Virus record (IMG/VR): IMGVR_UViG_3300037851_000671
Coordinates: 64,001 to 128,000 of that record
Length of the DNA stretch: 64,000 nt
Origin: a virus
Taxonomy: Duplodnaviria; Caudoviricetes
Reading direction: 5' to 3' (one strand)
Every line of letters begins with the position of its first letter. Within the stretch, counting starts at the first letter, position 1. Positions 1,206 through 46,322 of this stretch are shown piece by piece. Position numbers and translations under genes: made by a program. A model generated the notes under the pieces. That model saw nothing but the letters and a program-made list of their open reading frames with translations. It was not told where the DNA came from and did no database searches.

Positions 1206-2810
1206 ATGAGCTGCATTCCTGTTGTCTTCCGTAGTTTTGACTATGCATTGAGCGGTTTGAAAGCCGTTTCTCCGCGTGGTGATGGCTATACTATTGACGT
1301 TGAGTGGTACAAGTCATACGTTACTCCTCAAAATTACGAGGTTTACTACAACATCTATTACGCCACAAACAACACGGATACTTTTTCAGAGGGTATCAAG
1401 TTCATATCAAACTCCCCAAGCCTTAGCATAACCCTACGTGATGGTTTCAAGCCAGGGGACGTATACTACTTTGCTGTCAGGGCCACAGCATTTCCTCCTG
1501 GCACTTTCAACTTTGCCCTCTTGCCAGTAGCCGGGGATAACCTTGCCATCCTGCCAGAAACAGCGTTGTCGCAAAACATCTCTAGCACTGACCTACAGAT
1601 ACCAGTTATAGATGCTACAGGTTTTCCAGGGGCTGGAACTGTACAAATTGGCACTGAGATCATCGGATACTCTGCCGTTGACCTTGTGGACAACACTCTG
1701 ATACTAGCTAACCCTGGTCAAAGAGGGCTTTATGGTACACAAGCCAGGTCACATACCACAGACGGGTATGATGGATACAACTATACCGATGGTTTCGTGA
1801 GGTTTTTCTCTGGATTTGAGGATAAAAATTCTGTCATCGGTCTTGGTATAAACAAATTCTCGATGCAATACCCTCGCACCAACGCTGATGGGTACAAGGA
1901 TAGGGTTGATGTTGTGACTTCAGCCAAGAATCTAGCTGCCAATGAGACTGAGTACACAGATTTTCCGATGTTTGATTACGCCGGATACCGCAGAACGAGT
2001 CCAAAAGACCTGTTGTCAGGAAAATGCCTCGGCACTTATTTCGGAGGAGAACTTGGATGCGCCGATGGATACGATTCTCTTGGCGGTTTGCGTGGAGTTT
2101 CTGTCCAAGATCAGATGTTGCAACGTCAAGAGATGCTTTTGGAAACTGATGGCGATGATTGCATCCTGTTCAAGCGCATGTGGGAAGGAAAAGTATCCAA
2201 ACATTACGATTCAACCAAAGAGAACACTGCCTACAGAGGTTTGGACAACCATGGAACATCATTGGTTGGAGGATACTCTCAGTATTTCTATCCAAGGAAC
2301 TCAAGTGGGCGTATCAAGGTTCGTTTTTCACCAATCAAAGAGAATTTTGAACGCCAAGAAGCTGGTTTGGAAAATGTTTTCACAGGATCTTGTTGGACAT
2401 TGGTAGTTCCAGTCCTTCAGGATGGAGATTTCATCATTCGTTTCAACAAAGACGGAACGGAAGAGTGGAGATATGAGATTTTGGACGTAGAGCGCAACAA
2501 AACTCTACTCATGGATAGCGGTTTACAGAAATTCACCGTAGCTCGTGTCAGGAAAACAGACCCAATATGCCAGGTGAGGGTAATTCGTGACACCAGCATG
2601 TTCCCTAAGGAGCTTTTGACTGGAATTGGTATGGTTGCCGGCCCCGGTGGCATTCCAGCTCACATGCACAGGATTGTTGTATCACAAGATAAAATAGTGA
2701 GCGTTTCTCAAATTAATCAAACAACATCAATCGCCCAAGGTCATACGCATGACGTAGTTGGGGGTGAAATATTAGAATCTCTTGGGCACACTCATAAAAT
2801 TACTTTGTAA
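1206..2810 (+). CDS. Neck/head-tail connector protein with N-terminal FN3-like and decoration domains and a His-rich C-terminus
   Basis: FN3-like pattern (VEWYKS..YNIYY..YYFAVRAT). Phage decoration pattern TALSQNISSTDLQIPV-GFP-GTVQIGTEII. C-terminal half (LLETDGDDCILFKR..GTSLVGGY..GDFIIR..RYEILDV) resembles myovirus head-completion proteins. Lies upstream of the tail genes. Confidence 0.55.
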   Translation: MSCIPVVFRSFDYALSGLKAVSPRGDGYTIDVEWYKSYVTPQNYEVYYNIYYATNNTDTFSEGIKFISNSPSLSITLRDGFKPGDVYYFAVRATAFPPGTFNFALLPVAGDNLAILPETALSQNISSTDLQIPVIDATGFPGAGTVQIGTEIIGYSAVDLVDNTLILANPGQRGLYGTQARSHTTDGYDGYNYTDGFVRFFSGFEDKNSVIGLGINKFSMQYPRTNADGYKDRVDVVTSAKNLAANETEYTDFPMFDYAGYRRTSPKDLLSGKCLGTYFGGELGCADGYDSLGGLRGVSVQDQMLQRQEMLLETDGDDCILFKRMWEGKVSKHYDSTKENTAYRGLDNHGTSLVGGYSQYFYPRNSSGRIKVRFSPIKENFERQEAGLENVFTGSCWTLVVPVLQDGDFIIRFNKDGTEEWRYEILDVERNKTLLMDSGLQKFTVARVRKTDPICQVRVIRDTSMFPKELLTGIGMVAGPGGIPAHMHRIVVSQDKIVSVSQINQTTSIAQGHTHDVVGGEILESLGHTHKITL

Positions 2811-43340: not shown

Positions 43341-46322
43341 ATGAACAATAGAACAACAGTGTCACAAGTTGAGCCTCGTTGGTACGATGGACAGAGGGTA
43401 GATCAGACGGACATGCAGCTAGAGCAGGACCGTGGGGTAAAAACCGATGCATCTATCATCAGTAACCATGTGGGTTCTGGCGTACTTCCATCAGCCATTT
43501 ATGCCCCTGTGTTATTCGATAGTGATAACATGTTTCCTGACCAAGTGGCTTTGGTGGCTTCAAAAGACTTTGATGGTACTGGTCTAAGACCATTGCTTCA
43601 GCCGAGCGATCCAAACCTTGGAAATCAGCTAGAGGTCGAATACACAGACTCTGATATTTTCGGGATGGCTACTGCCTTTGGCCGTCTATCGGTCAAGGCT
43701 CTAATCATAGGACTTGACTTCCAGGGAAACACGCAATACGACCGTTTCTATTTTCACACCAAGGAAAAGCAGGTTACCAGAAAGCATTACGCCAAGATAT
43801 TGAGTGTGTTGTTCAATGACTTTTTGGGCAACAGCAACTGTTCAAGAACGCTAGGTGGGCGTGTAATCATCAGGGAAGCAGAGAGCTTTGAGCTTTCAAG
43901 AGACCCTATAATGATATCCCAAGATCTATCACCAAACCTGTTCTTCAGGGATTTTAAGATCTCTAACTTCTCAACATCGCCAAATCCAACGGTAACCCTT
44001 TACCAAACATTGCAAGAGGCAATGGGCTCAGAGTACACAGTTGATTCTTTGAACATCAACACAACGGTAAAGCGCAATGTCTATTTGGCGGCAGGTGATG
44101 TTACAACCAAACTAGCCCAGAAGTTTCAAGCATCAACTGACAACATTCAGAAGATATCTATCTTGTTAGGTGTTGATGAGAACACTACAGTATCTGACGA
44201 AAACAAGTTTGATTGGAGCGGAGAGTTCGTAGTTAGCGTATATGCGTTACAGACAACCGTCAGCAATCCATCAGACCTTGTACCACAGTTGGCTATAGAA
44301 TTTGATCCTAACCCAGAACCAATTACTCAGTTCACGTTTGATCAAGAGAGTCTGAGAGACCTTGGGTACGTTTTGAACAACGTGCTTCAACCGGTTGACT
44401 TCATATTCGGGGCGTCTGCTCTTGGAAACAAAATCAACCCCGTTGTTGTGCCTGGAAAATACTATGCAATCAGCATCTGTAGGGCCGGGGACACAACCAA
44501 CGGAAACATATTTACTGGCGTTGGTAATAGCTTTAGCACAGCTGACAGGTTCAGTATTTTCAGTGGTATTTGGTCTGACGTACCAAGCGAGGACATGTGG
44601 TATCAGGTTTGGACAGATGCAGCCAAGGTAGCTGACGGTCAGGCTTATGATGGTGGCAATGGTGTACAGATACCAAAAACCATTGTCAATTCTGTAGGTG
44701 CCACGGTTGATAATTCGTTGAGTGGTCAGTCATTCAATGAAACGGGCCAGAACACGCTTAACACAGCTGTTGTGGAAGCTGTTCTAACGCCAAGTGGTCA
44801 GGAACAGGATGAGCGTACTGGAAGTCCGGTGTATTCAAGGCAGCAGTTTGAGGCGGCCGTCAGCTTTGTATCAAGCTCATCTCTGACAACTCTAAAGGAG
44901 TCTGGAGATCCTTTGATTATCGGATGTGCCAGGGACACAAACCCAAAGAGCAATTCCATCATCAAAGGCATTCAGAATATACCAGGACTTACCAAGGGGA
45001 ATACCTTCAAGGTGGTGAACCCGGATCCAAACTTGCTTTCACAGCAGTTGGTTGGAAGTAAGTTGATACCTAACGATGACTGTGAGGGTCTGGATTACAG
45101 AATCTTCGAGGTCAGGGTGTGCTTGGATGGTTATGGAGATGTCAATGGCGATGGCATCATTGACCAGTACGATGTTTACAGAGCTTCTGAACTGTTGTCA
45201 GAATCGATATACAGTTCCACCACGCAGCAGAAGATCATAGATGGATACATTGATCCGCTAGAGCTTCTGCGTGCTGATGTGAATGGAGATGGTTTTGTAA
45301 CCGCTGAGGACATCAATCTTATATCTGCGTTCGTCTCACGCACCATAACATCCTTCCCTGTTGGAACTAGTTTCCGTCACATTGAGCTGGTGGTTCAAGA
45401 GAGTATTGGCAGGTATGATGGTTACTTTGATTGTGGTGATGGGTATGTAAGGCTTGATGGGTACGTTGGTAAAAATGTCATTCCAATAGAAGACCTGAAT
45501 CAGTACGATTTAGTGTATGATGGTTACAACTCCCCAGTAAACATGGAGTTGAATGATCCTATATTCAGAACAGTGCCGTTCAGCCCGATACCATACAAGA
45601 TAAGGCCACAGGCATTCTGGCAGGATTGGTTGGTTCAATTCAGTAGTGAGGCGAGGATTGTTCCAGCAGTATTCACGTCTTTTGTGGAGGAACCAAAACT
45701 AAGAGATAGTCATGGTCAATGTTTGGAAGCATCGCTCACACTGTGTGAGGATCCGTTAGCTTTCGGAAGTCCATGCAACCCTGGTAAGAATGATTTTCTT
45801 ATTCCTGACAACTTATTCATAAAGCGTGGTCAGATTCTAAACGCTGATGGAACATTTTTCAAGCAGGATTTTGAGATTGGAATAATCAACATTGAGCTAC
45901 CACAAGAGCAGTTCATAGAGACGCCAATCAATGTGTTTGAGAAATTTGTTTGCAACAGTGCTGGAAATGGTTTTACAACAGCTGGTTTCAAGGCAATGAA
46001 ATTTGCTGATTGTTCGTGGGTTGAGCCAGACGCAATACTCAAAAACCAAGTAAGGTTTGGTGTTGCTTTGCAATCAATTGTACCAAACAGCGATGGTTAC
46101 GATCCGATAGATGGTTACGGAATTATCATTGACGAGTTGGTTGGCGTTTACATGGACAATCTAACCGGTATCATGACGCTATCGATGAAAGACCTGTTAT
46201 ATGAGCCAGTATACAGAACACTTGTTACAAGGATAGAGGTTACTGTGTACTTGAAGAAAGCAGGATGGAACAACCAGATGGTTTACGTCACGCCAGATCA
46301 GGTCGCCGGCTTGTTCTTGTAA
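43341..46322 (+). CDS. Baseplate-attached fibre/structural protein containing a dockerin-like domain
   Basis: N-terminal WYDGQRVDQTDMQLEQ fibre-anchor pattern, paired GDVNGDG/ADVNGDG loops and 8 DGY motifs. Start at ATG 43341. Confidence 0.65.
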   Translation: MNNRTTVSQVEPRWYDGQRVDQTDMQLEQDRGVKTDASIISNHVGSGVLPSAIYAPVLFDSDNMFPDQVALVASKDFDGTGLRPLLQPSDPNLGNQLEVEYTDSDIFGMATAFGRLSVKALIIGLDFQGNTQYDRFYFHTKEKQVTRKHYAKILSVLFNDFLGNSNCSRTLGGRVIIREAESFELSRDPIMISQDLSPNLFFRDFKISNFSTSPNPTVTLYQTLQEAMGSEYTVDSLNINTTVKRNVYLAAGDVTTKLAQKFQASTDNIQKISILLGVDENTTVSDENKFDWSGEFVVSVYALQTTVSNPSDLVPQLAIEFDPNPEPITQFTFDQESLRDLGYVLNNVLQPVDFIFGASALGNKINPVVVPGKYYAISICRAGDTTNGNIFTGVGNSFSTADRFSIFSGIWSDVPSEDMWYQVWTDAAKVADGQAYDGGNGVQIPKTIVNSVGATVDNSLSGQSFNETGQNTLNTAVVEAVLTPSGQEQDERTGSPVYSRQQFEAAVSFVSSSSLTTLKESGDPLIIGCARDTNPKSNSIIKGIQNIPGLTKGNTFKVVNPDPNLLSQQLVGSKLIPNDDCEGLDYRIFEVRVCLDGYGDVNGDGIIDQYDVYRASELLSESIYSSTTQQKIIDGYIDPLELLRADVNGDGFVTAEDINLISAFVSRTITSFPVGTSFRHIELVVQESIGRYDGYFDCGDGYVRLDGYVGKNVIPIEDLNQYDLVYDGYNSPVNMELNDPIFRTVPFSPIPYKIRPQAFWQDWLVQFSSEARIVPAVFTSFVEEPKLRDSHGQCLEASLTLCEDPLAFGSPCNPGKNDFLIPDNLFIKRGQILNADGTFFKQDFEIGIINIELPQEQFIETPINVFEKFVCNSAGNGFTTAGFKAMKFADCSWVEPDAILKNQVRFGVALQSIVPNSDGYDPIDGYGIIIDELVGVYMDNLTGIMTLSMKDLLYEPVYRTLVTRIEVTVYLKKAGWNNQMVYVTPDQVAGLFL

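What the first reader, a model, noticed from the sequence alone, without database searches (positions are those of the whole stretch)
1206..46322. Virion-wide DGY (Asp-Gly-Tyr) motif confined to probably surface-exposed structural proteins: candidate modification sequon
Seen: a manual count of the ORF track gives about 45 DGY tripeptides in eight proteins: neck 5, 1023-aa fibre 13, 1689-aa fibre 7, tail terminator 1, sheath 3, 715-aa protein 2, 2227-aa wedge 6 and 996-aa fibre 8. There are none in tube, tape measure, tube initiator, hub, spike, gp25, J, the endonuclease or any glycan enzyme. Only a few would be expected by chance over ~8,300 aa. The motif appears singly and in clusters between domains, with mixed synonymous codons, so it is selected as peptide. 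Established: tube and tape measure are buried in an assembled myovirus, whereas sheath, neck and fibres are exposed. Tyr O-glycosylation is known from some Gram-positive S-layer proteins, and virion glycosylation by phage-encoded GTs is known in some mycobacteriophages. Inference: DGY is a recognition sequon for a post-translational modification, most simply glycan attachment by the adjacent GT cluster. Alternatives are Ca2+ binding, docking of a decoration protein, Tyr cross-linking or a protease site.
Basis: partly seen in the sequence, partly recalled or inferred. Interest (0 to 1): 0.92.

Follow-up and report, generated by a model that had tools for sequence, protein, structure and literature searches.

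The report
DGY tag on outer virion proteins
The outward-facing tail, neck and fibre proteins of this huge phage and hundreds of metagenomic relatives carry the tripeptide Asp-Gly-Tyr far more often than chance, while inner tail proteins avoid it. This points to an undescribed recognition or modification site on the virion surface, possibly for sugar attachment to tyrosine.

Summary
There are 45 DGY in eight window proteins against about 2 expected, and none in the other 36 ORFs.

- **Whole contig (219 kb):** DGY is the most enriched of all tripeptides (79 observed, 10.9 expected, z 20.7; the next is z 6.3).
- **Level of selection:** it is selected as peptide (79 in-frame, 7 out-of-frame, 7 antisense).
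- **Specificity:** DGF, NGY and EGY are not enriched.
- **Spread:** about 165 related loci (GC 29-56%) share the trait.
- **Outer versus inner proteins:** outer families run at 15x (860/57). Tube, hub, initiator-like and tape measure run at 0.10x (3/31) yet tolerate DGF (2.3x). So the Tyr hydroxyl appears to be what is read.

A sequon-like motif is therefore well supported. The glycosylation reading is only circumstantial.

- A conserved GT4 gene (46349-47467) follows the last fibre gene in all near-complete relatives.
- That GT4 also persists in a sister clade with only about 2x DGY.
- One complete DGY-bearing genome lacks GT2 genes.
- An intact tyrosine-phosphatase-like gene tracks the strongly enriched clade instead.

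No paper describing this was found. The scan noted the same signal earlier in at least 11 other genomes.

The parts
1206..2810 (+). Neck-like 534-aa protein with 5 DGY (aa 26, 186, 189, 228, 287)
   Evidence: Orthologs in the strong clade have 46 DGY against 2.0 expected.
3739..6810 (+). 1023-aa fibre with 13 DGY, including a tandem array at aa 768-789
7329..12398 (+). 1689-aa fibre with 7 DGY, including a cluster at aa 1486-1502
   Evidence: In 11 homologs one site is invariant, several are shared and many are lineage-specific; each homolog keeps 3-11. The family total is 347 against 26 expected.
13266..14213 (+). 315-aa terminator-like protein with 1 DGY (aa 171)
   Evidence: The site is conserved in 15 of 16 homologs. 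The family total is 108 against 6.8 expected.
14319..16796 (+). Tail sheath, 825 aa, with 3 DGY (aa 179, 186, 203) in loops of an inserted domain
   Evidence: Conserved in 94, 114 and 115 of 120 homologs. AF2 pLDDT is 82 and the sites lie in non-regular DSSP positions. Foldseek matches sheath proteins. DGY-poor relatives have D[AS][NY]G at the same columns.
16827..28986 (+). DGY-free inner set: tube, chaperone-like ORFs, tape measure, 343-aa protein, 1721-aa hub and 664-aa spike-like protein
   Evidence: There are no DGY here. Across the clade the tube, 343-aa, hub and tape-measure families have 3 DGY against 31 expected, while DGF is at 2.3x. Only a weak Pfam TMP_3 hit was found.
29005..31152 (+). 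715-aa baseplate-region protein with 2 DGY
31152..36652 (+). DGY-free 581-aa protein, gp25-like sheath initiator and Baseplate_J protein
   Evidence: Pfam.
36652..43335 (+). 2227-aa LamG-containing protein with 6 DGY (cluster at aa 1185-1202)
43332..46322 (+). 996-aa fibre with a dockerin-like segment and 8 DGY
46349..47467 (+). GT4-family GT-B glycosyltransferase, 372 aa, the first gene after the fibres. It is the candidate enzyme that reads DGY.
   Evidence: Pfam GT4/GT1 hits. AF2 pLDDT is 94 and Foldseek matches BshA, PimA, MshA and GlgM. The EX7E residues E263 and E271 are invariant in 55 homologs. An ortholog is present in 35 of 41 related records, in 9 of 9 strong-clade records that are at least 90% complete, and in 11 of 13 sister-clade records. 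It is absent from Bacillus phage G and Eggerthella phage LE2-3.
47554..63998 (.). Remainder of the glycan island: 5 GT2, GT10, GT11, CgeB-like GT, FkbM and class-I methyltransferases, ATP-grasp, DegT aminotransferase, gmd and fcl-like epimerase. It contains no DGY.
   Evidence: GT2 content varies among relatives.

Best explanation
DGY is a three-residue recognition motif, a sequon, placed on solvent-facing loops and inter-domain linkers of the outermost virion proteins: neck, terminator, sheath insertion domain, outer baseplate and fibres. It is kept out of proteins that are buried in the assembled tail. The feature being read includes the tyrosine hydroxyl. The most likely reader is a soluble phage enzyme that acts in the cytoplasm on folded or folding structural proteins. 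The best candidate is the conserved retaining GT4 glycosyltransferase encoded directly after the last fibre gene. It would start an O-linked glycan on Tyr, and the variable downstream island (GT2/GT10/GT11, GDP-sugar enzymes, methyltransferases) would extend it into a surface glycan coat. Shown here: the motif statistics, specificity, conservation, turnover, the contrast between outer and inner proteins, and the synteny and conservation of GT4. Inferred: that the motif is covalently modified, that the modification is a glycan, that Tyr is the acceptor, and that GT4 is the initiating enzyme.
For: DGY is the top tripeptide genome-wide in three genomes of GC 33%, 43% and 56% (79/10.9, 73/15.5, 105/14.6). 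Selection is at peptide level. Non-virion proteins are at expectation (4 against 4.3). About 165 related loci are enriched 3-24x. Sheath and terminator sites are positionally conserved, while fibre sites turn over with the load maintained. Outer families are at 15x and inner families at 0.10x, yet DGF is tolerated in inner families at 2.3x. The fold does not need DGY, because relatives have D[AS][NY]G in the same loops. Tandem DGY arrays occur in linkers. A glycan island abuts the tail genes. GT4 is a core, syntenic gene with an intact EX7E motif, and it is absent from outgroup phages that lack DGY enrichment. Virion glycosylation by phage-encoded GTs has a precedent in mycobacteriophages (Freeman et al. 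2023, as cited in PMC12619734). Tyr-O-glycans exist in Gram-positive S-layers (PMC2943079).
Against: There is no chemical evidence of any modification. GT4 and some GT2 genes are also present in the sister clade, where DGY is only about 2x overall and 3.5x in the structural block. GT presence therefore does not explain the strength of the signal. The complete genome G029 carries DGY in its tail locus but has no GT2. The structural neighbours of GT4 are small-molecule and lipid glycosyltransferases, not known protein glycosyltransferases. A tyrosine-phosphatase-like gene, not a GT, marks the strongly enriched clade. All associations are at clade level, with few independent events.
Confidence: 0.4

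Rival explanations
1. DGY is a sequon for a different tyrosine-directed modification cycle, such as phosphorylation, nucleotidylation or a phosphodiester-linked group. The strong-clade-specific PTP-like enzyme (genome 16133-17218) would take part in it. The glycan island would serve another purpose, for example altering the host surface.
For: The Y-over-F specificity points to the hydroxyl. The PTP-like protein has an intact HCX5R(T) signature. Its ortholog is in 9 of 9 near-complete strong-clade genomes and in 0 of 13 sister-clade records, including 0 of 4 complete ones. In three genomes it sits at the upstream edge of the virion module, with GT4 at the downstream edge.
Against: This is one clade-level association among about 13 clade-specific genes. 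No kinase, sulfotransferase or Fic domain was found in this contig, which is 51% complete. The Y_phosphatase2/DSP family often acts on non-protein phosphates. A phosphatase removes rather than installs a mark.
Confidence: 0.12
2. DGY is a non-covalent binding motif. It could be a docking site for a decoration or adaptor protein, or a small sugar- or Ca2+-binding element that helps the virion surface adhere to host or environmental glycans.
For: The motif is restricted to outer proteins and avoided in inner ones. Asp plus Tyr is a common sugar-contacting pair (own knowledge). Many carriers have LamG/ConA-like lectin domains and one has a dockerin-like Ca2+ site.
Against: The sites lie in very different structural contexts, including tandem low-complexity arrays, which is unusual for a folded binding pocket. 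A three-residue element is too small to bind on its own. No conserved partner protein was identified. DGY lies outside the canonical dockerin loops.
Confidence: 0.2
3. DGY is only a favoured structural element of beta-rich fibre and sheath domains, an Asp-Gly turn followed by an aromatic residue, inherited and amplified by domain duplication.
For: The sheath sites lie at turns next to strands. DG is a classic turn dipeptide (own knowledge). The DGY-bearing sheath insertion domain recurs in other DGY-rich proteins.
Against: DGF, NGY, DGW and EGY are not comparably enriched. Homologous loops in DGY-poor relatives fold with other residues. The beta-rich hub and tube avoid DGY tenfold yet use DGF. 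Tandem DGYDGYDGY arrays are not hairpins. Outgroup myophage tail modules are at expectation.
Confidence: 0.08
4. DGY is a protease cleavage site or an oxidative Tyr cross-linking site used in virion maturation.
For: Avoidance in inner proteins fits any enzyme-read motif. A strong-clade-specific M24 peptidase exists.
Against: Three conserved sites inside a folded sheath domain would fragment the sheath if cleaved. M24 enzymes are aminopeptidases (own knowledge). The source samples are probably anaerobic, which argues against dityrosine chemistry; this is an inference from MAG labels.
Confidence: 0.05

Closest known systems
Virion glycosylation of mycobacteriophages by phage-encoded glycosyltransferases (Freeman et al. 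2023, cited in PMC12619734)
   Same: GT genes sit within or next to the structural operon, and glycans decorate the virion exterior.
   Different: There the glycans sit on C-terminal extensions of the capsid and tail-tube subunits, and no tripeptide sequon is known. Here the tube is strictly DGY-free, the motif is spread over neck, sheath, baseplate and fibres, and the presumed acceptor is Tyr.
Chlorovirus PBCV-1 capsid glycosylation by virus-encoded cytoplasmic GTs with atypical sequons (own knowledge; a chlorovirus GT is among the Foldseek hits)
   Same: A virus-encoded, host-independent glycosylation machinery acts on structural proteins at non-canonical sites.
   Different: That system is a eukaryotic virus with N-linked glycans on Asn of the major capsid protein. 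It has no DGY motif.
General O-glycosylation of Bacteroidetes with a conserved three-amino-acid motif (PMC8698959; D-(S/T)-(A/I/L/V/M/T) from own knowledge)
   Same: The sequon has three residues and begins with Asp, and fucosylated glycans are involved.
   Different: There the acceptor is the middle Ser/Thr and transfer is periplasmic from a lipid carrier. Here the middle residue is Gly, the hydroxyl is on Tyr at +2, and the substrates assemble in the cytoplasm.
Tyrosine O-glycosylation of S-layer proteins (Paenibacillus alvei, Thermoanaerobacter; PMC2943079)
   Same: It is a precedent for a stable O-glycosidic link to Tyr on a bacterial surface array.
   Different: That process is co-secretional, uses a membrane oligosaccharyltransferase, affects two to four sites per protein and has no DGY consensus reported. 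It is not phage-encoded.
GT4 retaining GT-B glycosyltransferases (BshA, PimA, MshA, GlgM)
   Same: Fold, Pfam family and EX7E motif of the 372-aa enzyme at 46349-47467.
   Different: The known members act on small molecules, lipids or glycans. A protein-Tyr acceptor would be a new specificity.

Membership tests
Protein-modification sequon (generic) | A short motif enriched in the substrate class beyond composition, selected at peptide level | tested here: met
   79 against 10.9 genome-wide and 45 against 2.1 in the window. 79 occurrences are in frame against 7 out of frame and 7 antisense.
Protein-modification sequon (generic) | The motif is avoided where modification would be harmful (buried or interface proteins) | tested here: met
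   Inner tail families have 3 against 31 expected (0.10x), while control tripeptides range from 0.44x to 2.3x.
Protein-modification sequon (generic) | The acceptor side chain is required: Tyr cannot be replaced by Phe | tested here: met
   Outer families have DGY at 15x and DGF at 2.7x. Inner families have DGY at 0.10x and DGF at 2.3x.
Protein-modification sequon (generic) | Co-occurrence of the motif with its modifying enzyme across genomes | tested here: inconclusive
   GT4 is present in all near-complete DGY genomes and absent in two outgroups. It is also present in the weakly enriched sister clade. The DGY-null lineage L096 is only a 21-kb fragment.
Protein-modification sequon (generic) | A covalent adduct is demonstrated on the motif | not testable with these tools
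   This needs MS of virions or of co-expressed substrates.
GT4 glycosyltransferase (candidate enzyme, 46349-47467) | GT-B two-Rossmann fold | tested here: met
   AF2 pLDDT is 93.9. Foldseek TM is about 0.7 to BshA, PimA and MshA.
GT4 glycosyltransferase (candidate enzyme, 46349-47467) | Conserved EX7E motif in the C-terminal domain | tested here: met
   E263 and E271 are invariant in 55 homologs.
GT4 glycosyltransferase (candidate enzyme, 46349-47467) | Pfam Glyco_transf_4 / Glycos_transf_1 above the curated threshold | tested here: met
   30.8 bits against a cut-off of 28.5, and 27.3 bits against 26.4.
Mycobacteriophage-type virion glycosylation | GT genes embedded in or adjoining the virion structural operon | tested here: met
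   The island starts 27 nt after the last fibre gene, and the synteny is kept in relatives.
Mycobacteriophage-type virion glycosylation | Glycans on C-terminal extensions of the capsid and tail-tube subunits | tested here: not met
   144 tube orthologs carry no DGY. The motif is internal and spread over other proteins.
S-layer-type Tyr O-glycosylation | A lipid-carrier pathway with a membrane O-oligosaccharyltransferase | not tested
   Pfam scans of the island found no such enzyme, but no dedicated search was run.
Ca2+-binding dockerin / EF-hand loop | The motif coincides with the DxDxDG-type Ca2+ loop | tested here: not met
   Only the 996-aa fibre has a dockerin hit (aa 601-666). Its DGY sites flank the DVNGDG loops rather than form them, and the other 37 sites have no such context.

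The most novel reading that the evidence does not exclude
A large, globally distributed super-clade of huge phages coats the exposed surface of its virions by enzymatic modification of tyrosine in a dedicated three-residue sequon, Asp-Gly-Tyr. The modification would most plausibly be a phage-built O-glycan started by a conserved cytoplasmic GT4. The phages also purge the sequon from proteins that must pack inside the tail. This would be the first defined sequon for virion modification in phages and the first cytoplasmic protein-Tyr glycosylation system in prokaryotic viruses.
Probability: 0.38. Interest if true: 0.88.

Novelty: new variant of a known kind. Interest (0 to 1): 0.8.

Why it matters
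If DGY is a modification sequon, it gives a sequence-readable map of which virion surfaces are modified in hundreds of uncultured huge phages. It also points to a candidate enzyme-substrate pair, GT4 or the PTP-like protein with a portable three-residue tag, that can be tested in E. coli without culturing the phage. It would add a new type of protein-Tyr chemistry with possible use as an orthogonal tagging system. It would also bear on how large phages shield or adapt their tails against host or environmental recognition. Even without the chemistry, strong enrichment in outer proteins combined with tenfold avoidance in inner proteins is an unusually clean signature of selection on a short linear motif in a virus particle.

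Tried and rejected
- **Complex prediction:** Complex prediction of GT4 with the tandem-DGY linker of the 1023-aa fibre gave no verdict (score 0.01, partner pLDDT under 30). It is evidence neither for nor against binding.
- **Cultured relatives:** the 'phages' collection holds no close relative. Only remote sheath hits to Bacillus phage G and Eggerthella phage LE2-3 were found, and I used these as outgroups.
- **Literature:** searches for 'DGY motif' with phage, for tyrosine O-glycosylation with bacteriophage, and for virion glycosylation found no description of this motif. The moraphage paper (PMC12619734) concerns another lineage. Zarschler 2010 is not held.
- **GT2 co-variation:** GT2 (PF00535) as the co-varying marker is rejected. 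It is absent from complete G029 and present in the weak clade.
- **Flank logo:** the logo around DGY is dominated by homologous sheath sites, so it was not interpreted.
- **DGY-poor representatives:** contigs for P0125, P0137, P0134 and P0152 were short or had no DNA available. The L096 lineage could not be extended.
- **PTP in small fragments:** the search in L085, L117, L143 and L099 was uninformative.
- **Other Tyr-modifying enzymes:** Pkinase, sulfotransferase and Fic domains were not found in this 51%-complete contig.
- **Codon bias:** the GGG excess in the motif's Gly is specific to this genome and absent in G028 and G017, so it is not part of the mechanism.
- **Pooled tripeptide ranking:** ranking over many loci is confounded by orthologous repeats, so I used single-genome rankings instead.
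- **Solvent accessibility:** model coordinates are not exposed to scripts, so it could not be computed.

Full report
**Observation.** I translated the 44 long ORFs of the window and counted DGY.
- Neck-like 534 aa has 5, the 1023-aa fibre 13, the 1689-aa fibre 7 and the 315-aa terminator-like protein 1.
- The sheath has 3, the 715-aa protein 2, the 2227-aa protein 6 and the 996-aa fibre 8.
- That makes 45, against about 2.1 expected from each protein's own composition.
- Every other ORF has zero, including tube, tape measure, the 343-aa protein, the 1721-aa hub, the 664-aa spike-like protein, the gp25-like protein, Baseplate_J and all island enzymes.

The contexts include isolated sites and tandem arrays, for example six DGY within 22 residues at aa 768-789 of the 1023-aa fibre. 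Synonymous codons are mixed.

**Whole genome.** The window is bases 64001-128000 of a single 218,772-bp virus contig. CheckV rates it about 51% complete.
- Over 217 crude ORFs (69,268 aa), DGY occurs 79 times against 10.9 expected.
- It is the most enriched of all 8,000 tripeptides (z 20.7; the runner-up is 6.3).
- DGF, DGW, NGY, EGY, SGY, DAY and DSY are at 0.5-1.3x.
- 500 per-protein shuffles give a mean of 11.2 and a maximum of 21.
- The DNA pattern GAYGGNTAY is in frame on the sense strand 79 times, out of frame 7 times and antisense 7 times, so selection acts on the peptide.

By region:

| Region | DGY observed | Expected |
|---|---|---|
| Virion block, 36-110 kb | 65 | 4.7 |
| Second block, 146-156 kb | 10 | 0.83 |
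| Glycan island | 0 | 1.0 |
| Remaining 142 proteins (35 kaa) | 4 | 4.3 |

The second block encodes LamG/collagen/beta-flower fibre-like proteins. The signal therefore extends beyond the coordinates given but stays within structural or fibre-like proteins.

**Identity of the carriers.** Annotation support is partial.
- Pfam and PHROGs give a weak sheath hit, a weak TMP_3 hit, a weak gp25-like sheath-initiator hit, a strong Baseplate_J hit, LamG in the 2227-aa protein and a dockerin-like segment in the 996-aa fibre.
- An AF2 model of the sheath (pLDDT 82) matches phage sheath structures such as phi812, T4 and Mu.
- In that model the three DGY lie at non-regular DSSP positions within the inserted, non-core part of the protein.

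**Relatives.** The sheath has more than 500 metagenomic homologs. DGY is kept at aa 186 in 114 of 120, at aa 203 in 115 of 120 and at aa 179 in 94 of 120. The terminator-like site is kept in 15 of 16 homologs. In 11 homologs of the 1689-aa fibre, one site is invariant, several are shared and many are lineage-specific, and each protein retains 3-11 sites. This is turnover with a maintained load.

Three IMG/VR scans returned about 165 loci around sheath homologs of 39-72% identity and GC 29-56%. Nearly all are enriched 3-24x. In two further genomes that I fetched whole, DGY is again the top tripeptide: G028 (GC 33%) has 73 against 15.5, and G017 (GC 56%) has 105 against 14.6. Tail regions of Bacillus phage G and Eggerthella phage LE2-3 are at expectation, with 3 against 2.2 and 2 against 3.1.

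**Enrichment and avoidance.** I grouped orthologs across the strongly enriched clade.

| Family set | Total size | DGY observed / expected | DGF |
|---|---|---|---|
| Outer: sheath, terminator-like, 1689-aa fibre, neck-like | 282 kaa | 860 / 57 (15x) | 2.7x |
| Inner: tube, 343-aa protein, hub, tape measure (387 orthologs) | 228 kaa | 3 / 31 (0.10x) | 2.3x |

In the inner set the other control tripeptides range from 0.44x to 1.9x. Orthologs are not independent, so these are not clean probabilities. Even so, a tenfold deficit across proteins that are only about 45% identical indicates purifying selection against DGY where proteins are packed inside the tail. The Y-versus-F contrast points to the phenolic hydroxyl as the feature being read. 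In DGY-poor sheath homologs the same loops read D[AS][NY]G or DSNGNP, so the fold does not require DGY. These points argue against a purely structural turn motif. They favour a motif recognised by an enzyme or a partner.

**The glycan island and GT4.** Positions 46349-64000 encode GT4, five GT2, GT10, GT11, a CgeB-like GT, two methyltransferases, an ATP-grasp enzyme, a DegT aminotransferase, gmd and an fcl-like epimerase.
- GT2 clusters lie beside the tail module in most long relatives, but the complete 446-kb genome G029 has none.
- The first island gene, the 372-aa GT4, is different. Orthologs of 36-73% identity, in the same position after the last fibre gene, occur in 35 of 41 records.
- They occur in all nine strong-clade records that are at least 90% complete, G029 included, and not in phage G or LE2-3.
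- The GT4 has about as many database homologs as the sheath and invariant EX7E glutamates.
- Its AF2 model is confident (pLDDT 94), and its neighbours are classic GT4 enzymes (BshA, PimA, MshA, GlgM), none of which is a protein glycosyltransferase.

**A test that weakens the GT link.** A monophyletic sister clade (80 loci; sheath about 43% identical to ours) has only 129 DGY against 58.6 expected. Its complete genomes G042 and G048 show 32 against 15.9 and 28 against 17.1, and DGY is not the top tripeptide. The G042 structural block is still 3.5x enriched, at 18 against 5.2. Yet 11 of 13 sister records, including 4 of 4 complete ones, have the syntenic GT4, and most have a GT2. GT4 presence therefore tracks the presence of the motif (strong or weak, against none in outgroups), not its intensity. 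This partly contradicts an earlier scan note claiming clean presence/absence co-variation with GT genes.

**A clade-specific tyrosine-phosphatase-like gene.** Thirteen genes of this contig have homologs in both fetched strong genomes and in neither sister genome.
- One of them, at genome 16133-17218, has an N-terminal Y_phosphatase2/DSP domain (E 6e-11) with an intact HCKHGKDRTG signature.
- Its ortholog is in 24 of 36 strong-clade records, including 9 of 9 that are at least 90% complete.
- It is in 0 of 13 sister records.
- In three genomes it lies at the upstream edge of the virion module, with GT4 at the downstream edge.
- This is a single clade-level association and could reflect host takeover, but it keeps a non-glycan Tyr chemistry in play.
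- No kinase, sulfotransferase or Fic domain was found on this half-complete contig.

**Phylogeny.** In an outgroup-rooted tree of the sheath C-terminal region, the weak clade is monophyletic (support 1.0) and lies near the base together with a strongly enriched lineage (L085). The node that orders the weak clade relative to L085 and the main strong clade has support of only 0.69. Whether the strong state is ancestral or derived is therefore unresolved. One lineage, L096, has no DGY in 6,271 aa (0.9 expected). It is nested inside the strong clade as sister to L117 (support 0.97). That is an independent loss, but its contig is only 21 kb and stops before the baseplate, so its GT4 and PTP status is unknown.

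**Verdict.** I found no published description. The scan itself had already flagged the same signal in at least 11 other genomes.

My confidence in each reading is as follows.

| Reading | Confidence |
|---|---|
| Tyr-O-glycosylation started by the conserved GT4 | about 0.4 |
| Non-covalent docking or binding motif | about 0.2 |
| Phosphatase-linked Tyr modification | about 0.12 |
| Structural turn | about 0.08 |
| Protease or cross-link site | about 0.05 |

Taken together, I consider a sequon-like, enzyme- or partner-read surface motif involving the Tyr hydroxyl the most likely general reading. The complex-prediction job gave no verdict and is not used as evidence.

Noticed in passing
outside the window: G000:C1:16133-17218 (L325:1133-2218, P0391): A 361-aa protein has an N-terminal tyrosine/dual-specificity phosphatase domain with an intact HCX5R(T) motif. 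It is present in all near-complete strongly DGY-enriched genomes and in none of 13 sister-clade records.
   Followed up: partly
window-wide, Gly codon of DGY: GGG encodes 29% of the motif's Gly against 9% genome-wide and 8% in other DG contexts. The bias is absent in relatives G028 and G017, so it is specific to this genome and unexplained.
   Followed up: partly
window 14319-16796, sheath aa ~105-252: The DGY-bearing insertion domain of the sheath also occurs in unrelated-length proteins of 650-1100 aa (P0226, P0232, P0235, P0237, P0256) that carry 5-6 DGY each. It appears to be a mobile surface domain.
   Followed up: no
L096 / L094 (IMGVR_UViG_3300033069_001735): A lineage nested inside the DGY-rich clade has no DGY in 6.3 kaa of tail proteins, which is an apparent secondary loss. 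The contig is too short to see the GT4 or PTP genes.
   Followed up: partly
outside the window: G000:C1:145046-145852 (L326:7046-7852): An M24 metallopeptidase gene lies just upstream of the 2076-aa DGY-rich fibre-like gene. It is conserved in strong-clade genomes (E 1e-54 to 1e-73) and absent from the two sister genomes.
   Followed up: no
window 43332-46322, aa 601-666: The 996-aa fibre contains a dockerin type I-like pair of Ca2+-binding loops (DVNGDG), which is unusual in a phage fibre.
   Followed up: no
window 12451-13143 (minus strand): The only long minus-strand ORF inside the plus-strand tail module is 230 aa and 22% Gly. It may be a real Gly-rich gene or a shadow ORF.
   Followed up: no
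G042 (sister-clade genome, L256-L272): YAA and AAY are the most enriched tripeptides genome-wide (70 and 66 against 22 expected), which suggests a different repeated element in that lineage.
   Followed up: no
L331 (distant sheath relative P0164): A distant myophage lineage has GT2 and GDP-sugar epimerase genes directly upstream of its neck and sheath genes, with mild DGY excess (3 against 0.9). GT genes next to tail genes may be wider than this clade.
   Followed up: no
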